A stretch of DNA of 64,000 nucleotides from Candidatus Uhrbacteria bacterium CG10_big_fil_rev_8_21_14_0_10_50_16 (GCA_002774875.1 PCYM01000006.1:17434-81433); one strand, 5' to 3'; shown: positions 2,990 through 41,575, counted from the first letter of the stretch. Notes: a model not told the origin generated them from the sequence alone. Translations and numbers: made by a program.

Positions 2990-3470
2990 GGAGTCGACCG
3001 GCTTGTCGCAAGGAAAGCCCGACTAAGACTAGGAGCTATCGAATCAACCCCCTCCCCCTAATTCGAACGCTCAGGTCTATGGTGCCTGCTCCCGTGCATT
3101 CCCAGCAGGCCGGTCCGAGGTAACTCTCGGACCGGCCACTAACCTTCTCTTTCGGACCGCTAAACAGGCGGTTTTGCTGTTTCTTGACCCAGAACCAATG
3201 AAGGAGCAATGTTCTCTCGCACCATTCGACCGTAGGATGGAGCTTACCCGACCGACGATCACGTCCGGCCAATATCCCCCACCAGGGACTAGGCCGGGCG
3301 TGGGCTGGGTCACGCTATCCGACCGTCCACCTCTGGACGGTTTGTTGTTTCTACCCCTCAATCCACCTTCGGGATTGACAAATAACACGCTTTCTTGTAT
3401 ATTCCTAGCGTTATTCACCAACGATCGCTTGGTACCTGATCTCTCCGACGGGTCACTCGGCCTTCGCTAA
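2990..3470. ncRNA. candidate structured ncRNA (rnpB or ssrA possible; strand undetermined)
   Basis: ~480 bp with no credible ORF and higher GC than its flanks. Many hairpins (GGCCGGTCCGAGGTAACTCTCGGACCGGCC with a GNRA-type loop; TTCGAAT...ATTCGAA). The motif GGAAAGCCCGAC resembles the RNase P P4 strand GGAAAGUCCGGGC, but the complementary P4 strand was not found. Confidence 0.3.
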
Positions 3471-8297: not shown

Positions 8298-8700
8298 TGT
8301 ACCCTTCAAACAATCGTTCTTTCAAAACCCCTACCACAGGGGTGTCTAGCGAAGACTGGTACATCTTGGCTGCGCACCTCTCCTCGCAACTGTTCTATTC
8401 CATTGTTTAAAAATAAAAACATAAAATTGGGATAAAACAAACGCCACGAAGGGCTCCCCTCAATACATGTTGGTCTCAAATTGGACCGGCGCTCGAGGGA
8501 TGCCATAGAACGGTTATGAGGGAAATGTTCTACCACGTGCAGGCAGCTCGTAGGCCGAGATCTGAAGACAATCCTTGTCGCTGGATCCCGGTCTACTGGA
8601 GCGCTCTTCTGCAGTGGACCTAACGTCCGACTGCCCGAGTCACCAGCGCTCCACCTATCTATAAAGGGAGACGCTCGTAGTTCAGGCAGTCTTTTCGTTT
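8298..8700 (+). ncRNA. candidate structured ncRNA downstream of a promoter (possible RNase P RNA-like)
   Basis: ~400 nt with no credible ORF and high GC. Hairpins CCCCTACCACAGGGG and GGACCGG...CCGGTC. The 3' segment CCCGGUCUACUGG resembles the RNase P P4-3' CCCGGCUUAUCGG. Confidence 0.3.
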
Positions 8701-30480: not shown

Positions 30481-30833
30481 GGTCGCTCAACCGTCCAACC
30501 GAGACAGCTACACGAGCTGCCTACTCCGGTGGGCGGTTTCGTGTTTTATATTGATCTCACTTTATATTTAACCTGCGTAACCAAAACGCATGTGTTTGAA
30601 GATAAGCCTCCTCGACGAAGTATTTCAGCAATTAGGAGCGAGGAGTTGTGCAAAAATAAGGGACAAGCCGGCGCCATGCTTACAAGACCTTATCTCTGAC
30701 AAGCTGTCTTCTGCGTGCGAACGCACGCAGAGTGGCGTGGCCTGCCGAGTCACTTATTTTTGCACCACTCCGGGCGCTCCTTGACGTAGACCCACATTTT
30801 GGCTATTGTTCCGGCACAAAATCAATTACACGT

Positions 30834-32265: not shown

Positions 32266-32490
32266 ACTTTAAAACACATGCGTTTTGAGAATTGCGCTCG
32301 GTGCATTGCTTTAAATAATCTGCAAGGAGTCGTCGATGTACCAGTGTATTGCCTGCGTCTGCTAAAGATTGGGTCGACGCCCAACACGGATTATTTAGAA
32401 GCAACACGCCTCGCTCCTACATTGCTAAACTTCTTCGCTGAGTTCATTCATCTTCAAACACACGTGTTCTCGGGGGCGAAGTCTAGATGA
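32266..32490. repeat. intergenic repeat, family B copy 1 (related to 37897-38030)
   Basis: Shared segments CGCTCC(C)TACATTGC..GAACT..CTTCG..GAG..TCTTCAAACACA and TGTTCTCGGGG(G/A)CGAAG, plus AAACACAnGCGTTTTGAGAAnnnTGCGCT. Confidence 0.5.
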
Positions 32491-32574
32491 GATTAGAAAT
32501 TTAAGCCGAAATCTGTACGACTGTGAGAAAATCACCTTAAGTTGATAGGAGCAGAAGTTGGTAATTTGATATCT

Positions 32575-37721: not shown

Positions 37722-37896
37722 AGTGATTGGATTGTATCAAGGATCCCGGTCTGTATCGAGAGGTCGCTCGGATTGTGTTTAAAAAAGTGACTCGGAAGTA
37801 GAGACACGTCTTCGTGCCTTCGCACTCAGAAGACAGCTAGCCAGGAGTAAGCCTTGTACGTCTCTATCCGATTGTCCCTTTTTGTAAACACAACCC

Positions 37897-38030
37897 TTCG
37901 CTCCCTACATTGCCTGAACTCCTTCGTCGAGTACTCTTATCTTCAAACACAGTCGTTTTGAGAAGACTTGCGCTGTGGCTCCATCTTTCAAAACACCTGT
38001 GTTCTCGGGGACGAAGGCTGGATCTGATAA
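37897..38030. repeat. intergenic repeat, family B copy 2
   Basis: CGCTCCCTACATTGCCTGAACTCCTTCGTCGAGTACTCTTATCTTCAAACACAGTCGTTTTGAGAAGACTTGCGCT...TGTTCTCGGGGACGAAGGCTGGATCTGAT is collinear with 32266-32490. Confidence 0.5.
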
Positions 38031-38075
38031 GGTCCAGATCTGACCCATGCATCTCACACTTATACGAATCCTCAA

Positions 38076-38112
38076 TATTCAAATATGTGACGATCGCCCG
38101 TATTTTGAAACA
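38076..38112. repeat. palindromic element, family A (degenerate copy)
   Basis: TATTCAAATATGTGACGATCGCCCGTATTTTGAAACA: TTCAAA/TTTGAA arms around a GACGATCG core. Confidence 0.5.
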
Positions 38113-38170
38113 GGTGGTTTTAAGAGATTTCAACAAACCGCAATAAACAATGATTTAAGAGGCGATGAAG

Positions 38171-38210
38171 AAATATCAAACATGTGACGATCGGCACATG
38201 TTTGATATTT
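38171..38210. repeat. palindromic element, family A (perfect 16-bp arms)
   Basis: AAATATCAAACATGTG-ACGATCGG-CACATGTTTGATATTT. Confidence 0.6.
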
Positions 38211-38274
38211 GGACACGATAGTAATTTTTAGGATTATCTGGATGCCTGACTTCAAACTCTCAATGAAAACGAAA

Positions 38275-38299
38275 CGCGCTCCAGGATTCCTGGAGCGCG
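38275..38299 (-). terminator. rho-independent terminator at the left edge of the GC-rich island
   Basis: CGCGCTCCAGG-ATTC-CTGGAGCGCG (11-bp stem); on the minus strand it is followed by TTTCGTTTTC. Confidence 0.6.
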
Positions 38300-38384
38300 T
38301 CGTTCGTGTTCTGATCTGACTCAACCCAGGACGGGGAGTCTGTTCTCTCGCGCACGATCAGCATTGCGCGAGGTGGGGGGCGGC

Positions 38385-39200
38385 TCAGGTCTCCTCGTCG
38401 TCGGTGGCCGTCGTGGGGCGGGGGGCGAACTGGAGGAACTTCCCGCCCCTCCGAATCGGCCACCAGCCCATCACGGCATAAAAGGCGAACAAGCCTCCCA
38501 CACCGCAGAGGGCGAGCCCCATGAGGATGTAGGCCAGGGCCCACATCCCCCGAGGCTCGCCGGCGGGGTTTGTGCCGGCGCCGGCCACCATCACCGCCAG
38601 GCCCCAGAGGGCCAGGACCATGGCGGGGATGAGGGCGTAGAGCCGCAACATCCCAGCTGAGGTGGTGGTGAAGGGCTCCTTGGCGATCTTCACCACCTTC
38701 TCCTTCTTCCTCTCCACCACCTTGTAGAACACCGTCGGCTTGGTGCCGATGGTCCCGAGGTTGAGGGCCTTCTTGGCCGGTGGGGTAGACCCTCCGACAG
38801 GGGTGAAGGTGAATCTGGCCAGCTTCACCTTCTTGGCCGGAGCCGTCGGAGGGGCGGGGGCGGCCGCAGGGGCAGCTTTGGGAGCTGCCTTCGGTGCAGC
38901 CTTTGGAACTGCGGGTGCCGCGGGAGGCGGGACCGGTGCAGCCTTGGCCGCCGGCACGAGGGCGGCGCACTGCCGTGCTACCCACTCTCGCCGCGAGGTC
39001 TCCGTCTCTCCGCCGCCAAAGGGCCGGCGGAGGTTGACGGCTGCCTCCAAATCCCCCTGGAGCCCTCTGGCAGCTTCCACCCAGGCCAGGAGGTCGGGGT
39101 TGGGGGTGGTCTCGAGGATCACCATGTAGTGACCCTTTGAGACCTCGTCGGGGCCCAACGCAACGCCGGTACTCCGGAGGAGCCTGAATCTGTGGGCCAT
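38385..39200 (-). CDS. hypothetical membrane protein (island gene 1): N-domain, (KAAP)n linker, C-terminal TM hairpin
   Basis: 271 aa from MAHRFRLL with RBS AAAGGAGG; ~65% GC with GC3 bias. Pro/Ala/Lys-rich linker AAPKAAPKAAPAAAP. Two C-terminal TM helices. No recognisable family. Confidence 0.7.
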   Translation of the reverse strand: MAHRFRLLRSTGVALGPDEVSKGHYMVILETTPNPDLLAWVEAARGLQGDLEAAVNLRRPFGGGETETSRREWVARQCAALVPAAKAAPVPPPAAPAVPKAAPKAAPKAAPAAAPAPPTAPAKKVKLARFTFTPVGGSTPPAKKALNLGTIGTKPTVFYKVVERKKEKVVKIAKEPFTTTSAGMLRLYALIPAMVLALWGLAVMVAGAGTNPAGEPRGMWALAYILMGLALCGVGGLFAFYAVMGWWPIRRGGKFLQFAPRPTTATDDEET

Positions 39201-39265
39201 GCGGCCTCCTTTCCGGGCGTTTAGCCCTTGTTTTTGGGGTTTCTCACATCTTGTGTGAGCCAAGC

Positions 39266-39294
39266 AACATACCAGAAAAATGCAATTTTGTCAA
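39266..39294 (-). promoter_or_regulatory. sigma70-like promoter for island gene 1 (TTGACA-17-TATGTT on the minus strand)
   Basis: On the minus strand: TTGACAAAATTGCATTTTTCTGGTATGTT. Confidence 0.5.
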
Positions 39295-39316
39295 TGGGGG
39301 AGGTGTTTGGGTGAGG

Positions 39317-39345
39317 GTTGACAAAACCGTGTTTTTCTGGTATAT
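39317..39345 (+). promoter_or_regulatory. sigma70-like promoter for island gene 2 (TTGACA-17-TATATT)
   Basis: TTGACAAAACCGTGTTTTTCTGGTATATT, a near-identical mirror image of the minus-strand promoter 22 bp away. Confidence 0.55.
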
Positions 39346-39451
39346 TTCTACGTTATTCCTTAGGAATAGCCGCGGCTTCTGCCGTGTTGAACCGTTCTCT
39401 AAAATTGAAACGCGAAAGCGTACGAGACACCCAACACGGAAGGAGCCAAAT

Positions 39452-41452
39452 ATGGCACCCAAGAAGACCCCGTCCCCTACCGTTCCATTTTGGAAGACGG
39501 TGGAGGACATGATCGGCCAGCAGGTCGGTCACGCGGCAGGTAAGGGCCTGTCGCACTCCCACATCGTCACCCTCCTGGTGTCGATGATGAACGATCAGGT
39601 TCTCGGAGCGCTCAGGTTGGCGGGGCCGTCTTTGACGGCCGGCGTCGGCAAGACGGCGTTCCAGGTTTTGAAGGGCCGGATCCCGGTCCTCAAGAACCTC
39701 GCGGATCCCGTTCTGGAGGAGGCCATGGAGGGCCTCCTCAACGGGTTCTTCTCCCACCTCGCCAAGTTCCCCGGTGCGACGGACGCCCAGGCGCGCATGG
39801 CTCTGTTGGCTGCGGCCAACGAGTCCATGATCGCGCACGCCCCGGTCTCCGGGGGGGCGGTCAAGCCCGGCAGCTTCGTGCTGTCGGATGCCGTGCTCAA
39901 GGCCTTGGAGGAGAAGTACGACGAGGACTCCGTCAGGGAGATCCTCGCGTGGTACTGCCACGGGGTGAGCTGCCTCGCAAGGGCAGCCCTGGACATGAAC
40001 GTCCAGGACAGCCTCGCCGTGGAGGCCGGGATGGCCTTCAACCACGGCGATTTCTCGAGCGTGGTCTCCGTGATCACGTTCGTGGAGACGGCCAAGAAGC
40101 ACCAGGGATCCTTCGAGAACCTGGTATACGCGTGCGCGGCCGTGGTCCAGGCCAACACCGCCGCCGACCACAGCGGCATGCGGACCACGTTCATGGCGCG
40201 CCGCTTGTTGGCGCGCGGCCTCAACTGGCTCGGGGTCAACGGGACCCGCCAGAACTTCATGAACGTTCTCGGGAACTGGATCGCCCCCGGACTGCTCAAG
40301 GACGGGCAGTTCGTGGCGTTCCTCGTGGCCCTCTGGGTCGCGTGCTACGTGACCACGGCGGTTCCGTGGTTCTACGCCGCGCGTGCGGGGAGCTTCGTCG
40401 GGATGTTCATCCTTGCGGCGCTCAATCTGATCGTGACCCAGTTCACCCTCAAGGTGCTGGGTCTGGTCGTCGGGGTTCATTCGTCCCTGTACCGGGGAGT
40501 GCTGCACTTCCTCGGCCAGAAGGAGGAGGGTGGCGGGGACAAGCTTCCTGCCCTCCAGTCCCTGAGGGCGCAGGCCTCCAGCCCCCTGCTGGTGGCTACT
40601 GTGCTCAACGCGATCTTGATTTTGCTCCTGGGGGAGACCCCGCGAGCATTCAACTTCGCGATCATGATCTTGATGGCGACCGTCTCGGTCGGTATCCTGA
40701 TCAGCATCTGGGACATGGCCAAGACGAGCCACGCCAAGTTCTTCCTCGATGCGGGGATCAAGTACCTCCTCCCCGTTTTGCTGGCCTCCATGGCCTGGGA
40801 CGTGTACGACGCCTTCACCCAGAGCCAACTCCCCGGCAAGGGGATGCGGCTCATGGGCAATGTCCACGAGTTCTGGGGCTGGGCGACCAGCTTCAGCATG
40901 GGACAGGTGGTCACGGGAGGACTCACGATCCTCTTGGTGGCCGCAGTCGCCTTCGCCCTCAAGCAGGGCAAGGTGTGGCACGCGATCGCCCTCGTGGTGA
41001 TCGCGGTCCCCCTCTCGTGGATCGTGGACTGCTCCGTTTCGGCGCCCAAGCGCGCCGAGGCCGCACAGGAGCAGAGGGCGCAGGAACATGCCCTCCAGCT
41101 GGAGACCCTTCGTCTCCAGCGGCAGGTGGCGGAGGCGGGGAAGACCGTCATTGTCGTCGGCGACCCGGTCCTCGCAATGCGTCAACTGGGTGGCCCCACC
41201 CGCAAGGCGGACATCGCCCTGCGGGTGCCTCGCGAAAGCTCGGCTGCAACCGAGCGCGAGGAGATCCAGATTGAGGATGAGGAAGAGTGGGAGGAGGACC
41301 TCGACATGTTCGTGCCGGAGAAGCCGAACATCAGAGAGATCCTCCGCGAGCGGGAGGAAAGGGCACAGCGTACGGTTCACCACCGTCCGCGGCCCTCCTC
41401 CCGCCGCACGTCGGCCCACCACCACCGCGCGCAACGGAATGCGCGTAGGTGA
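39452..41452 (+). CDS. hypothetical large polytopic membrane protein (island gene 2)
   Basis: 666 aa from MAPKKTPSPTV with RBS AGGAG. ~330-aa soluble N-domain, ~7 predicted TM helices, a coiled-coil (EAAQEQRAQEHALQLETLRLQRQVAEAG) and a charged RE-rich tail. ~65% GC; no recognisable family. Confidence 0.75.
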   Translation: MAPKKTPSPTVPFWKTVEDMIGQQVGHAAGKGLSHSHIVTLLVSMMNDQVLGALRLAGPSLTAGVGKTAFQVLKGRIPVLKNLADPVLEEAMEGLLNGFFSHLAKFPGATDAQARMALLAAANESMIAHAPVSGGAVKPGSFVLSDAVLKALEEKYDEDSVREILAWYCHGVSCLARAALDMNVQDSLAVEAGMAFNHGDFSSVVSVITFVETAKKHQGSFENLVYACAAVVQANTAADHSGMRTTFMARRLLARGLNWLGVNGTRQNFMNVLGNWIAPGLLKDGQFVAFLVALWVACYVTTAVPWFYAARAGSFVGMFILAALNLIVTQFTLKVLGLVVGVHSSLYRGVLHFLGQKEEGGGDKLPALQSLRAQASSPLLVATVLNAILILLLGETPRAFNFAIMILMATVSVGILISIWDMAKTSHAKFFLDAGIKYLLPVLLASMAWDVYDAFTQSQLPGKGMRLMGNVHEFWGWATSFSMGQVVTGGLTILLVAAVAFALKQGKVWHAIALVVIAVPLSWIVDCSVSAPKRAEAAQEQRAQEHALQLETLRLQRQVAEAGKTVIVVGDPVLAMRQLGGPTRKADIALRVPRESSAATEREEIQIEDEEEWEEDLDMFVPEKPNIREILREREERAQRTVHHRPRPSSRRTSAHHHRAQRNARR

Positions 41453-41533
41453 TGTAAACCCCGGTGCAACGCCGGGGTTAGGACACAGGTTGCTCAGCAC
41501 CTAGGACCCAAAGCTGAGTACTCACGAAGACAT

Positions 41534-41575
41534 CACCCTCGACCGGTTCACGGTCGGGGGTGTCTTCTTTTTTAC
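41534..41575 (+). terminator. rho-independent terminator at the right edge of the GC-rich island
   Basis: CACCCTCGACCG-GTTCA-CGGTCGGGGGTG followed by TCTTCTTTTTT. Confidence 0.6.

What the first reader, a model, noticed from the sequence alone, without database searches (positions are those of the whole stretch)
39266..39345. Mirrored pair of near-identical sigma70-like promoters driving the two island genes
The 250-bp divergent intergenic region contains TTGACAAAACCGTGTTTTTCTGGTATATT on the plus strand (39317-39345). Its inverted near-copy TTGACAAAATTGCATTTTTCTGGTATGTT is on the minus strand (39266-39294). Both have a perfect -35 hexamer, a 17-nt spacer and a good -10. The two -35 boxes sit back to back, 22 bp apart. 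This 29-bp module duplicated as an inverted repeat suggests co-regulated divergent expression. The shared GTTTTTCTGG spacer core could be an operator.
Basis: seen in the sequence. Interest (0 to 1): 0.6.

Follow-up and report, generated by a model that had tools for sequence, protein, structure and literature searches.

The report
Conserved back-to-back divergent promoter pair
Two strong, ordinary-type bacterial promoters sit back to back and drive two unknown membrane-protein genes in an uncultured groundwater bacterium; the promoters stay almost unchanged across related lineages while the GC-rich genes they drive evolve very fast.

Summary
The arms are 39266-39294 (-) and 39318-39346 (+), and the -35 boxes are 23 bp apart, not 22. 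Each arm reads TTGACA, a 17-nt spacer, TGn, then TAT(A/G)TT. They are the two best promoter matches in the region, and the 29-mer is unique in the window.

The window is from a Candidatus Uhrbacteria (CPR) genome. The same gene pair sits at the same syntenic place in at least 8 lineages, between Pyr_redox and a T4SS-pilin gene array. Both arms are visible in all 8; a ninth contig (L018) is cut and shows only the + arm.

- **Conserved positions:** TTGACA, A7-9, T18-19, T21-G22 and T24-A25 are invariant or nearly so. Mid-spacer and inner -10 bases vary freely.
- **Operator idea:** other promoters of the same genome share the A-run, the T-run and often TGn. The "operator" core is therefore best read as general promoter determinants.
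- **Arm spacing:** the gap is 23 bp in 6 lineages but 10 and 7 bp in two others. The arms do not co-vary.
- **"Island":** it is not a recent import. The pair is syntenic, keeps GC3 at 0.80-0.94, and diverges much faster than its flanks.

Verdict: a well-supported classical back-to-back divergent sigma70-type promoter pair. The promoter pair is ordinary in kind, but its genomic setting is unusual.

The parts
39266..39294 (-). Promoter of gene A. The -35 TTGACA is at 39294-39289, followed by a 17-nt spacer. The extended -10 TG is at 39274-39273 and the -10 TATGTT at 39271-39266.
   Evidence: Conserved in 8 lineages.
39318..39346 (+). Promoter of gene B. The -35 TTGACA is at 39318-39323, followed by a 17-nt spacer. 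The extended -10 TG is at 39338-39339 and the -10 TATATT at 39341-39346.
   Evidence: The + arm is seen in all 9 contigs, including the cut contig L018.
39295..39317 (.). 23-bp gap between the two -35 boxes. Its length is conserved in 6 lineages and its sequence is not conserved.
   Evidence: The gap is 7 bp in L017 and 10 bp in L015.
39352..39352 (+). Probable transcription start of B. It is a conserved G, the 6th nucleotide after the -10. Inferred, not mapped.
   Evidence: The CGT(C/T)AT motif is conserved after the -10 in the seven + arms whose -10 fits TAnnnT. A covarying hairpin starts at this G.
39260..39260 (-). Probable transcription start of A. It is a conserved G, the 6th nucleotide after the -10. 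Inferred, not mapped.
39352..39370 (+). 5'-terminal stem-loop of the B mRNA.
   Evidence: Of 6 predicted pairs, 3 carry compensatory double changes and none is broken across 6 lineages.
39374..39447 (+). Long-range helix of the B leader (39374-39389 pairing with 39432-39447). It buries the Shine-Dalgarno GGAG at 39442-39445 and encloses a GAAA-capped hairpin.
   Evidence: I7; z = -4.4. P(SD unpaired) is 0.02 against a shuffled median of 0.26 in the window and L001 only; it is not significant in the other lineages.
39243..39259 (-). 5'-proximal stem-loop of the A mRNA (CUCACA-CAAGA-UGUGAG).
   Evidence: The stem is conserved in L001 and L013 with loop changes.
39452..41452 (+). Gene B. It encodes a 666-aa all-alpha polytopic membrane protein of unknown function, with GC3 of 0.88.
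   Evidence: substitutions are biased to the third codon position, with counts of 77/45/132 at positions 1/2/3. No Pfam, PHROG or PDB match.
38385..39200 (-). Gene A. It encodes a 271-aa protein with an N-terminal domain, a Pro/Ala-rich linker and C-terminal transmembrane helices. Function unknown; GC3 is 0.83.
41534..41575 (+). Intrinsic terminator of B: a 12-bp stem followed by a T-run.
   Evidence: L001 shows one compensatory G-C to A-T change and one wobble-to-Watson-Crick change.
38273..38301 (-). Intrinsic terminator of A: a 13-bp stem followed by a T-run.
   Evidence: Identical in L001 and L003.

Best explanation
The inverted repeat is two autonomous, near-consensus sigma70-type promoters of the extended -10 class, placed back to back.

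**Proposed mechanism**
- The host RNA polymerase holoenzyme binds each arm through the perfect -35 TTGACA, the TG at -15/-14 and the TA...T of the -10.
- It probably starts at the conserved G six bases downstream: 39352 on the plus strand and 39260 on the minus strand, about 92 bp apart.
- This produces two divergent monocistronic mRNAs, A (271 aa) and B (666 aa).
- Each mRNA begins with a stem-loop and ends at its own intrinsic terminator.

**Why the arms resemble each other.** Both are held by selection to the same extended promoter consensus of this organism: TTGACAAAA, about 6 variable bases, TTTT(C/T)TG, N, TA. The resemblance does not come from recent duplication, and the arms do not form one protein-binding palindrome.

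**Shown and inferred**
- Shown: sequence anatomy, conservation pattern, RNA covariation just downstream, terminators.
- Inferred: the transcription start sites, promoter strength, and any coupling between the two promoters, for example through negative supercoiling.
For: **1. Match to the consensus.** The arms score 11/12 and 10/12 with a 17-nt spacer and TGn, and are the best two hits in the 8-kb scan. The 29-mer is unique in the window.

**2. The host uses this consensus.**
- TTGACA-N17-TAnnnT sites lie just upstream of rpsO (3375), tRNA-Cys (19855) and other genes.
- Near-consensus sites with one -35 mismatch (TTGCCA, TCGACA) lie 6-9 nt upstream of the divergent tRNA-Gly and tRNA-Leu genes.

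**3. Phylogenetic footprint over 17 arms from 9 contigs (8 with both arms).**
- Invariant or nearly so: positions 1-6 TTGACA, A7-9, T18, T19, T21, G22, T24 and A25.
- Near-random: positions 10-15 and 26-28.
- This holds although B proteins are 25-35% identical and A proteins are barely alignable.

**4. Specificity.** In about 162 kb of window plus related loci, every exact TTGACA-N17-TAnnnT match outside the window (12 in about 98 kb of loci) is an arm of this pair. The window adds its 2 arms and 8 other sites, for 14 arms among 22 matches.

**5. RNA-level selection downstream.** It starts exactly at the predicted +1 G: the hairpin has 6 pairs, 3 with compensatory double changes and none broken.

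**6. Complete transcription units.** Both genes have an RBS and ATG and an intrinsic terminator, one of which shows compensatory change.

**7. The coding strand agrees with promoter orientation.** Third-position substitutions dominate and indels are in-frame.

**8. The arms act on their own.** The gap is 23 bp in six lineages but 10 and 7 bp in L015 and L017. Arms show no within-locus covariation at variable positions: 2.50 identical positions of 7 within loci against 2.63 between loci.
Against: - No transcription start data exist. The organism is uncultured and no RNA data were available here.
- The -10 hexamers of some lineages are weak (TACCCT, TAGTCT), so activity would depend on the -35 and the TG.
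- The host comparison set is small: 8 exact-pattern promoters. The claim that the A-run and T-run are general promoter features is therefore suggestive rather than proven.
- The strict 23-bp gap in six lineages is not explained by autonomous promoters alone.
Confidence: 0.75

Rival explanations
1. The shared spacer core (TTTTTCTGG), or the whole inverted repeat, is an operator. A dimeric or looping regulator binds both arms and co-represses or co-activates A and B.
For: - Spacer positions 16-22 are more conserved in the arms (1.1-2.0 bits) than in the 8 other host promoters.
- The gap is exactly 23 bp in six lineages.
- The arm centres are 52 bp apart, about 5 helical turns.
- Each spacer has an internal AAAA-N5-TTTT dyad.
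Against: - The conserved positions are those that contact RNA polymerase (TG at -15/-14) or that recur in unrelated host promoters, such as the T-run at 17-19 and the A-run after the -35.
- The gap changes to 10 and 7 bp in L015 and L017 with the arms intact, which changes the helical phase.
- The centre is not conserved in sequence.
- No regulator gene is linked to the pair in any lineage.
Confidence: 0.15
2. The conserved intergenic module is mainly a recombination anchor. It would be a stretch of conserved DNA between two hypervariable genes, across which alleles of A and B are exchanged. Promoter activity would be secondary.
For: - The intergenic region is an island of identity (66-89%) between A (30-50%) and B (40-65%) in the closely related L012 and L014, whose flanks are 80-95% identical.
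- Identity along B between the window and L001 is mosaic, with 95-100% at 39936-40236 against flanks of about 75%.
- L003 carries the same block with a different left flank.
Against: - Conservation inside the module is position-specific and follows promoter elements rather than being uniform.
- The evidence for independent shuffling of A and B is weak. The A(L014)-A(L013) similarity of 51% covers only a 35-aa motif.
- A recombination anchor does not exclude promoter function.
Confidence: 0.06
3. The inverted repeat acts as a nucleic-acid hairpin, either a DNA cruciform or an RNA stem in a read-through transcript. Alternatively it forms the inverted repeats of an invertible promoter switch.
For: - The arms are 32 nt long and 81% complementary.
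- There is a weak hairpin-type Rfam chance hit at 39264-39348, with E = 0.57.
Against: - The two arms show no compensatory covariation at variable positions.
- The segment between the arms is only 7-23 bp and carries no promoter that could be flipped.
- No recombinase gene is nearby.
- Both flanking genes point outward, so no transcript is expected to span both arms.
Confidence: 0.02

Closest known systems
Classical back-to-back divergent sigma70 promoters. This is the divergent-promoter organisation of bacterial genes; their dependence on supercoiling is studied in PMC4469952.
   Same: - Two separate promoters on opposite strands, each with its own -35 and -10, with upstream regions facing each other.
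- Start sites are about 92 bp apart, and the promoters drive two divergent genes.
   Different: - The two arms are unusually alike, and both are held at near-consensus with a perfect -35 across at least 8 lineages.
- No regulator site is evident between them.
Extended -10 (TGn) promoters, also called the '-16 region' promoters of Gram-positive bacteria.
   Same: TG lies one base upstream of the -10 in 16 of 17 arms, and a T-rich stretch lies just upstream.
   Different: - Here the TG is combined with a perfect -35, whereas classical extended -10 promoters often lack a good -35.
- The upstream base is C/T (T-C/T-T-G) rather than the TRTG motif. This comparison comes from my own knowledge and was not tested.
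Symmetry-based bidirectional promoters (Warman et al., bioRxiv 10.1101/2020.01.31.928960; PMC12825309).
   Same: Divergent transcription arises from a pseudo-symmetrical DNA element.
   Different: - In those promoters the two -10 elements overlap on opposite strands. RNA polymerase binds in one of two exclusive orientations, with start sites a few tens of bp apart at most.
- Here the symmetry axis lies between the two -35 boxes. The -10 elements are about 70 bp apart, so the two promoters are physically separate.
Genomic island acquired by horizontal transfer.
   Same: There is a sharp compositional jump: 65-70% GC against 48%, and GC3 of 0.83-0.88 against about 0.5.
   Different: - No integrase, tRNA or flanking direct repeats are present.
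- The pair occupies the same syntenic position and has the same GC-rich composition in all related lineages. The anomaly is therefore old and maintained, not a recent import.

Membership tests
sigma70-type promoter (extended -10 class) | A -35 hexamer close to TTGACA and a -10 hexamer close to TATAAT, separated by 17 +/- 1 bp. | tested here: met
   The pair TTGACA/TATATT scores 11/12 and TTGACA/TATGTT scores 10/12, each with a 17-nt spacer.
sigma70-type promoter (extended -10 class) | TG located one base upstream of the -10. | tested here: met
   Both arms have it. It is present in 16 of 17 arms across lineages.
sigma70-type promoter (extended -10 class) | Correct position and orientation upstream of a gene with an RBS and start codon. 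| tested here: met
   The leaders are 60 nt (A) and 100 nt (B), with GGAGG and GGAG 6-7 nt before the ATG.
sigma70-type promoter (extended -10 class) | The host polymerase uses this consensus. | tested here: met
   Exact TTGACA-N17-TAnnnT sites precede rpsO and tRNA-Cys. One-mismatch -35 variants precede tRNA-Gly and tRNA-Leu at the expected distance.
sigma70-type promoter (extended -10 class) | Conservation confined to polymerase-contact positions in orthologous loci. | tested here: met
   Information profile of 17 arms.
sigma70-type promoter (extended -10 class) | Transcription start mapped 6-8 nt downstream of the -10. | not testable with these tools
   Support is indirect only: a conserved G, and a covarying 5' hairpin that starts at it.
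Back-to-back divergent promoter pair | Two promoters on opposite strands with non-overlapping core elements, and upstream regions that adjoin. | tested here: met
   The -35 boxes are 23 bp apart and the -10 elements lie at 39266-39271 and 39341-39346.
Symmetry-based bidirectional promoter (shared or overlapping -10) | -10 elements of the two orientations coincide or overlap, so that one RNA polymerase binding event excludes the other. | tested here: not met
   The -10 elements are 69 bp apart.
Operator / palindromic regulator site | Fixed spacing of half-sites across orthologues. | tested here: not met
   The gaps are 23, 10 and 7 bp.
Operator / palindromic regulator site | Conserved bases beyond those explained by polymerase contacts or the general promoter consensus. 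| tested here: inconclusive
   The T-run and A-run are stronger in the arms than in the 8 host promoters, but they are the same kind of feature.
Operator / palindromic regulator site | A linked regulator gene. | tested here: not met
   None was found in any of the syntenic loci.
Invertible promoter switch | Inverted repeats flanking a promoter-bearing segment, together with a site-specific recombinase. | tested here: not met
   The segment between the arms is 7-23 bp, and no recombinase gene is nearby.
Recently acquired genomic island | Atypical base composition. | tested here: met
Recently acquired genomic island | Patchy distribution, mobility genes, or a tRNA or direct-repeat boundary. | tested here: not met
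   - The pair is syntenic in 8 lineages.
- No tRNA is adjacent.
- No phage or viral relatives were found.

The most novel reading that the evidence does not exclude
The mirrored promoter, together with the 5' leader, is the one fixed piece of a hypervariable two-gene cassette. The cassette sits beside the T4SS-pilin gene array of Uhrbacteria.

- **Fast divergence.** The two ORFan membrane proteins diverge far faster than the rest of the genome, and not in step with it. L012 and L014 have flanks 87-97% identical, but B is 42% and A 28% identical.
- **Mosaicism.** The cassette shows mosaic identity consistent with recombination.
- **Composition.** It has kept GC3 at 0.8-0.94 inside 45-55% GC genomes over long evolutionary time.

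This would be a vertically retained, actively maintained compositional island. GC-biased gene conversion at a recombination hotspot, or selection on the mRNA, could maintain it. The cassette would encode strain-specific surface, host-interaction or exclusion functions.

A similar mirrored promoter next to GC-rich genes in an unrelated CPR-like contig (L044) hints that the pattern may be more general.
Probability: 0.3. Interest if true: 0.65.

Novelty: new member of a known kind. Interest (0 to 1): 0.4.

Why it matters
**The promoter pair itself.** It is a textbook kind of element, so it adds little on its own. It does provide one of the few comparative, position-by-position views of promoter determinants in an uncultured CPR bacterium: a perfect -35, an A-run, a T-run and TGn.

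**The setting.**
- The two strongest promoters of the neighbourhood are nearly frozen, while the two ORFan membrane-protein genes they drive are among the fastest-evolving genes nearby.
- Those genes keep a GC3 of about 0.9 in a 48% GC genome.
- If a recombination-driven or selection-driven process maintains this, the locus would be a clean natural case for studying how local base composition is maintained in bacteria.
- It would also point to strain-specific envelope functions linked to the T4SS-like pilins of episymbiotic CPR bacteria.

Tried and rejected
**Searches that found nothing useful**
- Rfam found only tRNAs at gathering thresholds. At E <= 1 on 37.7-41.9 kb it found no family, only chance miRNA hits.
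- Pfam and PHROGs gave no hits for A, B or any relatives.
- The PDB sequence profile search gave nothing below E = 0.07.
- The afdb50 fold library was unavailable.
- Viral contigs and the phage collection contain no relatives of B.
- GTDB genome contigs gave only the known second Uhrbacteria genome.
- The word-indexed protein search missed the distant homologues. The exhaustive HMMER search found them.

**Ideas tested and dropped**
- *SD sequestration conserved across lineages:* the minimum-energy folds suggested it. The ensemble test is significant only for the window and L001, so it was downgraded to a clade-specific feature.
- *A and B alleles shuffled independently:* the A(L014)-A(L013) 51% match covers only a 35-aa motif, so the claim was dropped.
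- *CGTTATTC after the -10 is a general start-region motif:* it is shared with the rpsO promoter, but there are only 6 copies in the window against 2.4 expected, and they are not promoter-linked.
- *The 715-aa antisense ORF 39353-41500 is a gene:* its GC pattern by codon position is the reverse-frame mirror of B (0.86/0.44/0.63). Substitutions follow the plus-strand frame, so it is an artefact of high GC.

**Metagenome scan.** A scan for the mirrored pattern found 33 contigs, none encoding A or B relatives.

Full report
**1. The observation**

- TTGACAAAATTGCATTTTTCTGGTATGTT lies on the minus strand at 39294-39266.
- TTGACAAAACCGTGTTTTTCTGGTATATT lies on the plus strand at 39318-39346.
- The -35 boxes are back to back, 23 bp apart (39295-39317), not 22.

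The match is far beyond chance.
- The repeat finder reports a 32-nt inverted repeat that is 81% complementary.
- A degenerate 29-mer with up to three mismatches occurs only at these two places in 64 kb, with none in 100 shuffles.
- In the consensus scan of 36-44 kb they are the two best promoter-like sites, scoring 11/12 and 10/12. Both have a 17-nt spacer and a TG before the -10.

**2. The two transcription units**

- The minus-strand gene A runs from 39200 to 38385 and encodes 271 aa. It has ATG preceded by GGAGG.
- The plus-strand gene B runs from 39452 to 41452 and encodes 666 aa. It has ATG preceded by GGAG.
- Each gene is followed by a strong intrinsic terminator: 38301-38273 on the minus strand and 41534-41562 on the plus strand.
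- The B terminator shows a compensatory G-C to A-T change in the orthologue.

Both genes are real coding sequences.
- Against the orthologue, indels are in-frame.
- Substitutions concentrate at third codon positions: 77/45/132 for B and 49/36/81 for A at positions 1/2/3.
- The 715-aa antisense ORF at 39353-41500 is an artefact of high GC.
- Neither protein matches Pfam, PHROGs or PDB sequences.

**3. Where the window comes from, and what the "island" is**

The window is from a Candidatus Uhrbacteria (CPR) genome. It has about 48% GC, while 38300-41560 has 60-73% GC. GC3 is 0.83 for A and 0.88 for B, against about 0.5 in neighbouring genes.

The word-indexed search found only one other genome with the pair. 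An exhaustive HMMER profile search found seven more distant full-length relatives of B, P0004-P0010, plus one 159-aa fragment.

Seven of their contigs are long enough to show neighbours, and all show the same neighbourhood: PGI, Pyr_redox, A (-), B (+), five T4SS_pilin genes, SBP, NTP_transferase. The eighth, L018, holds only B. There are two variations:
- L015 has the pair inverted relative to its flanks.
- L017 has two extra GC-rich genes.

In every lineage the pair has GC3 of 0.80-0.94, against 0.42-0.77 in the flanks. There is no adjacent tRNA, no integrase, and no phage or viral relative. The "island" is therefore an old, resident, compositionally anomalous locus rather than a recent import.

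**4. Comparative test of the promoter reading**

Both mirrored arms are present in all eight lineages whose contig spans the intergenic region. The cut contig L018 shows only the + arm.

The information profile over 17 arms is as follows.

| Positions in the 29-mer | Content | Conservation |
|---|---|---|
| 1-6 | TTGACA | invariant |
| 7-9 | A | 16, 15 and 13 of 17 |
| 10-15 | mid-spacer | near-random |
| 16-17 | T | 14 and 13 of 17 |
| 18-19 | T | invariant |
| 20 | C/T | 11 C, 6 T |
| 21-22 | TG | 16 of 17 each |
| 24-25 | TA | invariant |
| 26-28 | inner -10 | variable |
| 29 | T | 14 of 17 |

- This is the footprint expected of a sigma70-type extended -10 promoter. It is kept although B proteins are only 25-35% identical and A proteins are hardly alignable.
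- A G six bases after the -10 is conserved in all 14 arms tabulated. The three arms from L015 and L018 were not examined for it.
- In the B mRNA a hairpin starts exactly at that G. It has 6 pairs, 3 with compensatory double changes and none broken. This is indirect evidence that transcripts start there.
- In about 162 kb of window plus related loci, all 12 exact TTGACA-N17-TAnnnT matches found outside the window are arms of this pair. The window holds its 2 arms and 8 other sites.

**5. Does the host use such promoters?**

Yes.
- Exact TTGACA-N17-TAnnnT sites lie upstream of rpsO (3375-3403) and tRNA-Cys.
- Sites with one -35 mismatch lie 6-9 nt upstream of the divergent tRNA-Gly and tRNA-Leu genes.
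- Of the eight other exact-pattern promoters in the window, six have A at position 7, five have A at position 8, and six have T at positions 18-19.
- Several host promoters carry TGn.

The host set is small, so this conclusion is not airtight.

**6. Tests of the alternatives**

- **One palindromic protein site, or a hairpin.** Either would need fixed geometry or arm-to-arm covariation.
  - The gap is 23 bp in six lineages but 10 bp in L015 and 7 bp in L017.
  - The 23-bp centre has no conserved sequence.
  - At variable positions, arms of the same locus are no more alike than arms of different loci. The means are 2.50 against 2.63 identical positions of 7, and 10.6 against 10.0 of 17 across the spacer.
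  - The window's 13/17 spacer identity thus reflects shared constraint, not recent duplication or pairing.
- **Invertible switch.** The inter-arm segment is tiny and no recombinase is present, so this is excluded.
- **Symmetry-based bidirectional promoter** (bioRxiv 10.1101/2020.01.31.928960; PMC12825309). That type needs overlapping -10 elements, whereas here they are 69 bp apart. This is the classical back-to-back arrangement, in which coupling through supercoiling (PMC4469952) is possible but untested.

**7. RNA features downstream**

- The 100-nt B leader folds stably (z = -4.4 to -5.5 in the window and L001). It has a 5' hairpin and a long helix that buries the SD.
- SD occlusion is significant only in the window and L001: P(unpaired) is 0.02 and 0.00 against a shuffled median of 0.26. 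It is not significant in the other lineages. I treat it as clade-specific.
- The leader is nearly identical between the window and L001.
- The A mRNA also starts with a hairpin.

**8. The unusual setting**

- The pair diverges much faster than its neighbours and not in step with them.
  - L012 and L014 have flanks 87-97% identical, but B is 42% and A 28% identical.
  - The window and L001 have flanks 78-91% identical, but B is 84% identical.
- Sliding identity shows the intergenic module as an island of conservation between two hypervariable genes in L012 and L014.
- Between the window and L001 there is a mosaic, with 95-100% identity at 39936-40236 against about 75% in the flanks.
- Third-position divergence of B between the window and L001 (0.20) is lower than in the flanks (about 0.5).
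- Together these point to recombination or allele replacement, to strong constraint on synonymous sites, or to both. I could not separate these.
- A metagenome scan for the mirrored pattern found 33 contigs without A or B relatives. One CPR-like group (L030, L033, L039, L044) has very similar arms next to a 64-66% GC two-gene unit in a 38-50% GC genome.

**9. Verdict**

- The finding is real and its core interpretation (two promoters) is well supported by comparative evidence.
- The operator and island parts are not supported.
- In kind it is a new member of a known class, back-to-back divergent sigma70 promoters.
- Most of the interest lies in the frozen promoter module inside a fast-evolving, persistently GC-rich ORFan gene pair.

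Noticed in passing
window 38385-41452; loci L001, L010, L012-L015, L017: The A/B gene pair keeps GC3 at 0.80-0.94 in every lineage, while flanking genes are at 0.42-0.77. Its proteins diverge far faster than the flanks and not in step with them. Nothing tested here explains what maintains the composition.
   Followed up: partly
window 37763-38384: This 620-bp non-coding block is over 90% identical to L001 and L003 and moves with the pair: L003 has a different left flank starting exactly here. Its left part (37763-38040) is a dispersed repeat, with copies at window 30582-30759 and 32411-32496 and at L001 1587-1849. The block is absent from distant lineages.
   Followed up: partly
window 38171-38210: A 40-bp near-perfect palindrome (AAATATCAAACATGTGACGA / TCGGCACATGTTTGATATTT) lies inside the non-coding block. 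A related half-copy lies at 38079-38096.
   Followed up: no
window 38302-38384 (minus strand); L010 3033-3108; L014 about 8440-8560: The 3'UTR of A in the window is homologous (79% over 78 nt) to the 3'UTR of B in L010. It contains two stems with compensatory changes. It also has a hairpin loop CUGAUC complementary to a downstream GAUCAG, which may form a pseudoknot between the stop codon and the terminator.
   Followed up: no
window 39352-39451: The B leader is about 96% identical between the window and L001 (4 differences in 100 nt), more conserved than the coding sequence. It buries the Shine-Dalgarno in a 16-bp long-range helix. It has no Rfam match, and SD occlusion is significant only in this clade.
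   Followed up: partly
window 3375-3416: The rpsO promoter (TTGACAAATAACACGCTTTCTTGTATATT) resembles the plus arm even downstream of the -10: TATATTcCTAgCGTTATTC against TATATTtCTA-CGTTATTC. CGTTATTC is not a general motif.
   Followed up: partly
window 59461-59583: tRNA-Leu (-) and tRNA-Gly (+) are driven by their own back-to-back divergent promoters, with -35 boxes 65 bp apart. The -10 elements end 6-9 nt before the mature tRNA ends. This served as an internal control for the host promoter consensus.
   Followed up: yes
window 39353-41500 (minus strand): A 715-aa ORF runs antisense to gene B. Its GC by codon position (0.86/0.44/0.63) and the substitution pattern show that it is a by-product of high GC, not a gene.
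   Followed up: yes
L044 2800-4400 (also L030, L033, L039): An unrelated CPR-like contig has a mirrored TTGACAAAACCGTTGTTTT(C/T)TGA pair with a 19-bp gap. Its left arm faces a 64-66% GC two-gene unit in a 38-50% GC genome. That unit encodes a secreted YARHG-domain protein and a 141-aa protein.
   Followed up: partly
L020, L021, L024, L026, L028, L029, L032, L034-L038, L043, L045, L046, L048-L051: Nineteen metagenome contigs, most with JGI-style identifiers, from an organism of about 32% GC carry one conserved back-to-back TTGACA pair. Eighteen have a 7-bp gap and L034 has 6 bp. The pair is of the same extended -10 design. The genes were not examined.
   Followed up: no
L015 4132-8517; L017 8107-9530: In L015 the cassette is inverted relative to the pilin and Pyr_redox flanks and carries different partner genes of 163, 334 and 210 aa. 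In L017 two extra GC-rich genes (GC3 0.88-0.94) follow B. All of these lack family matches.
   Followed up: partly
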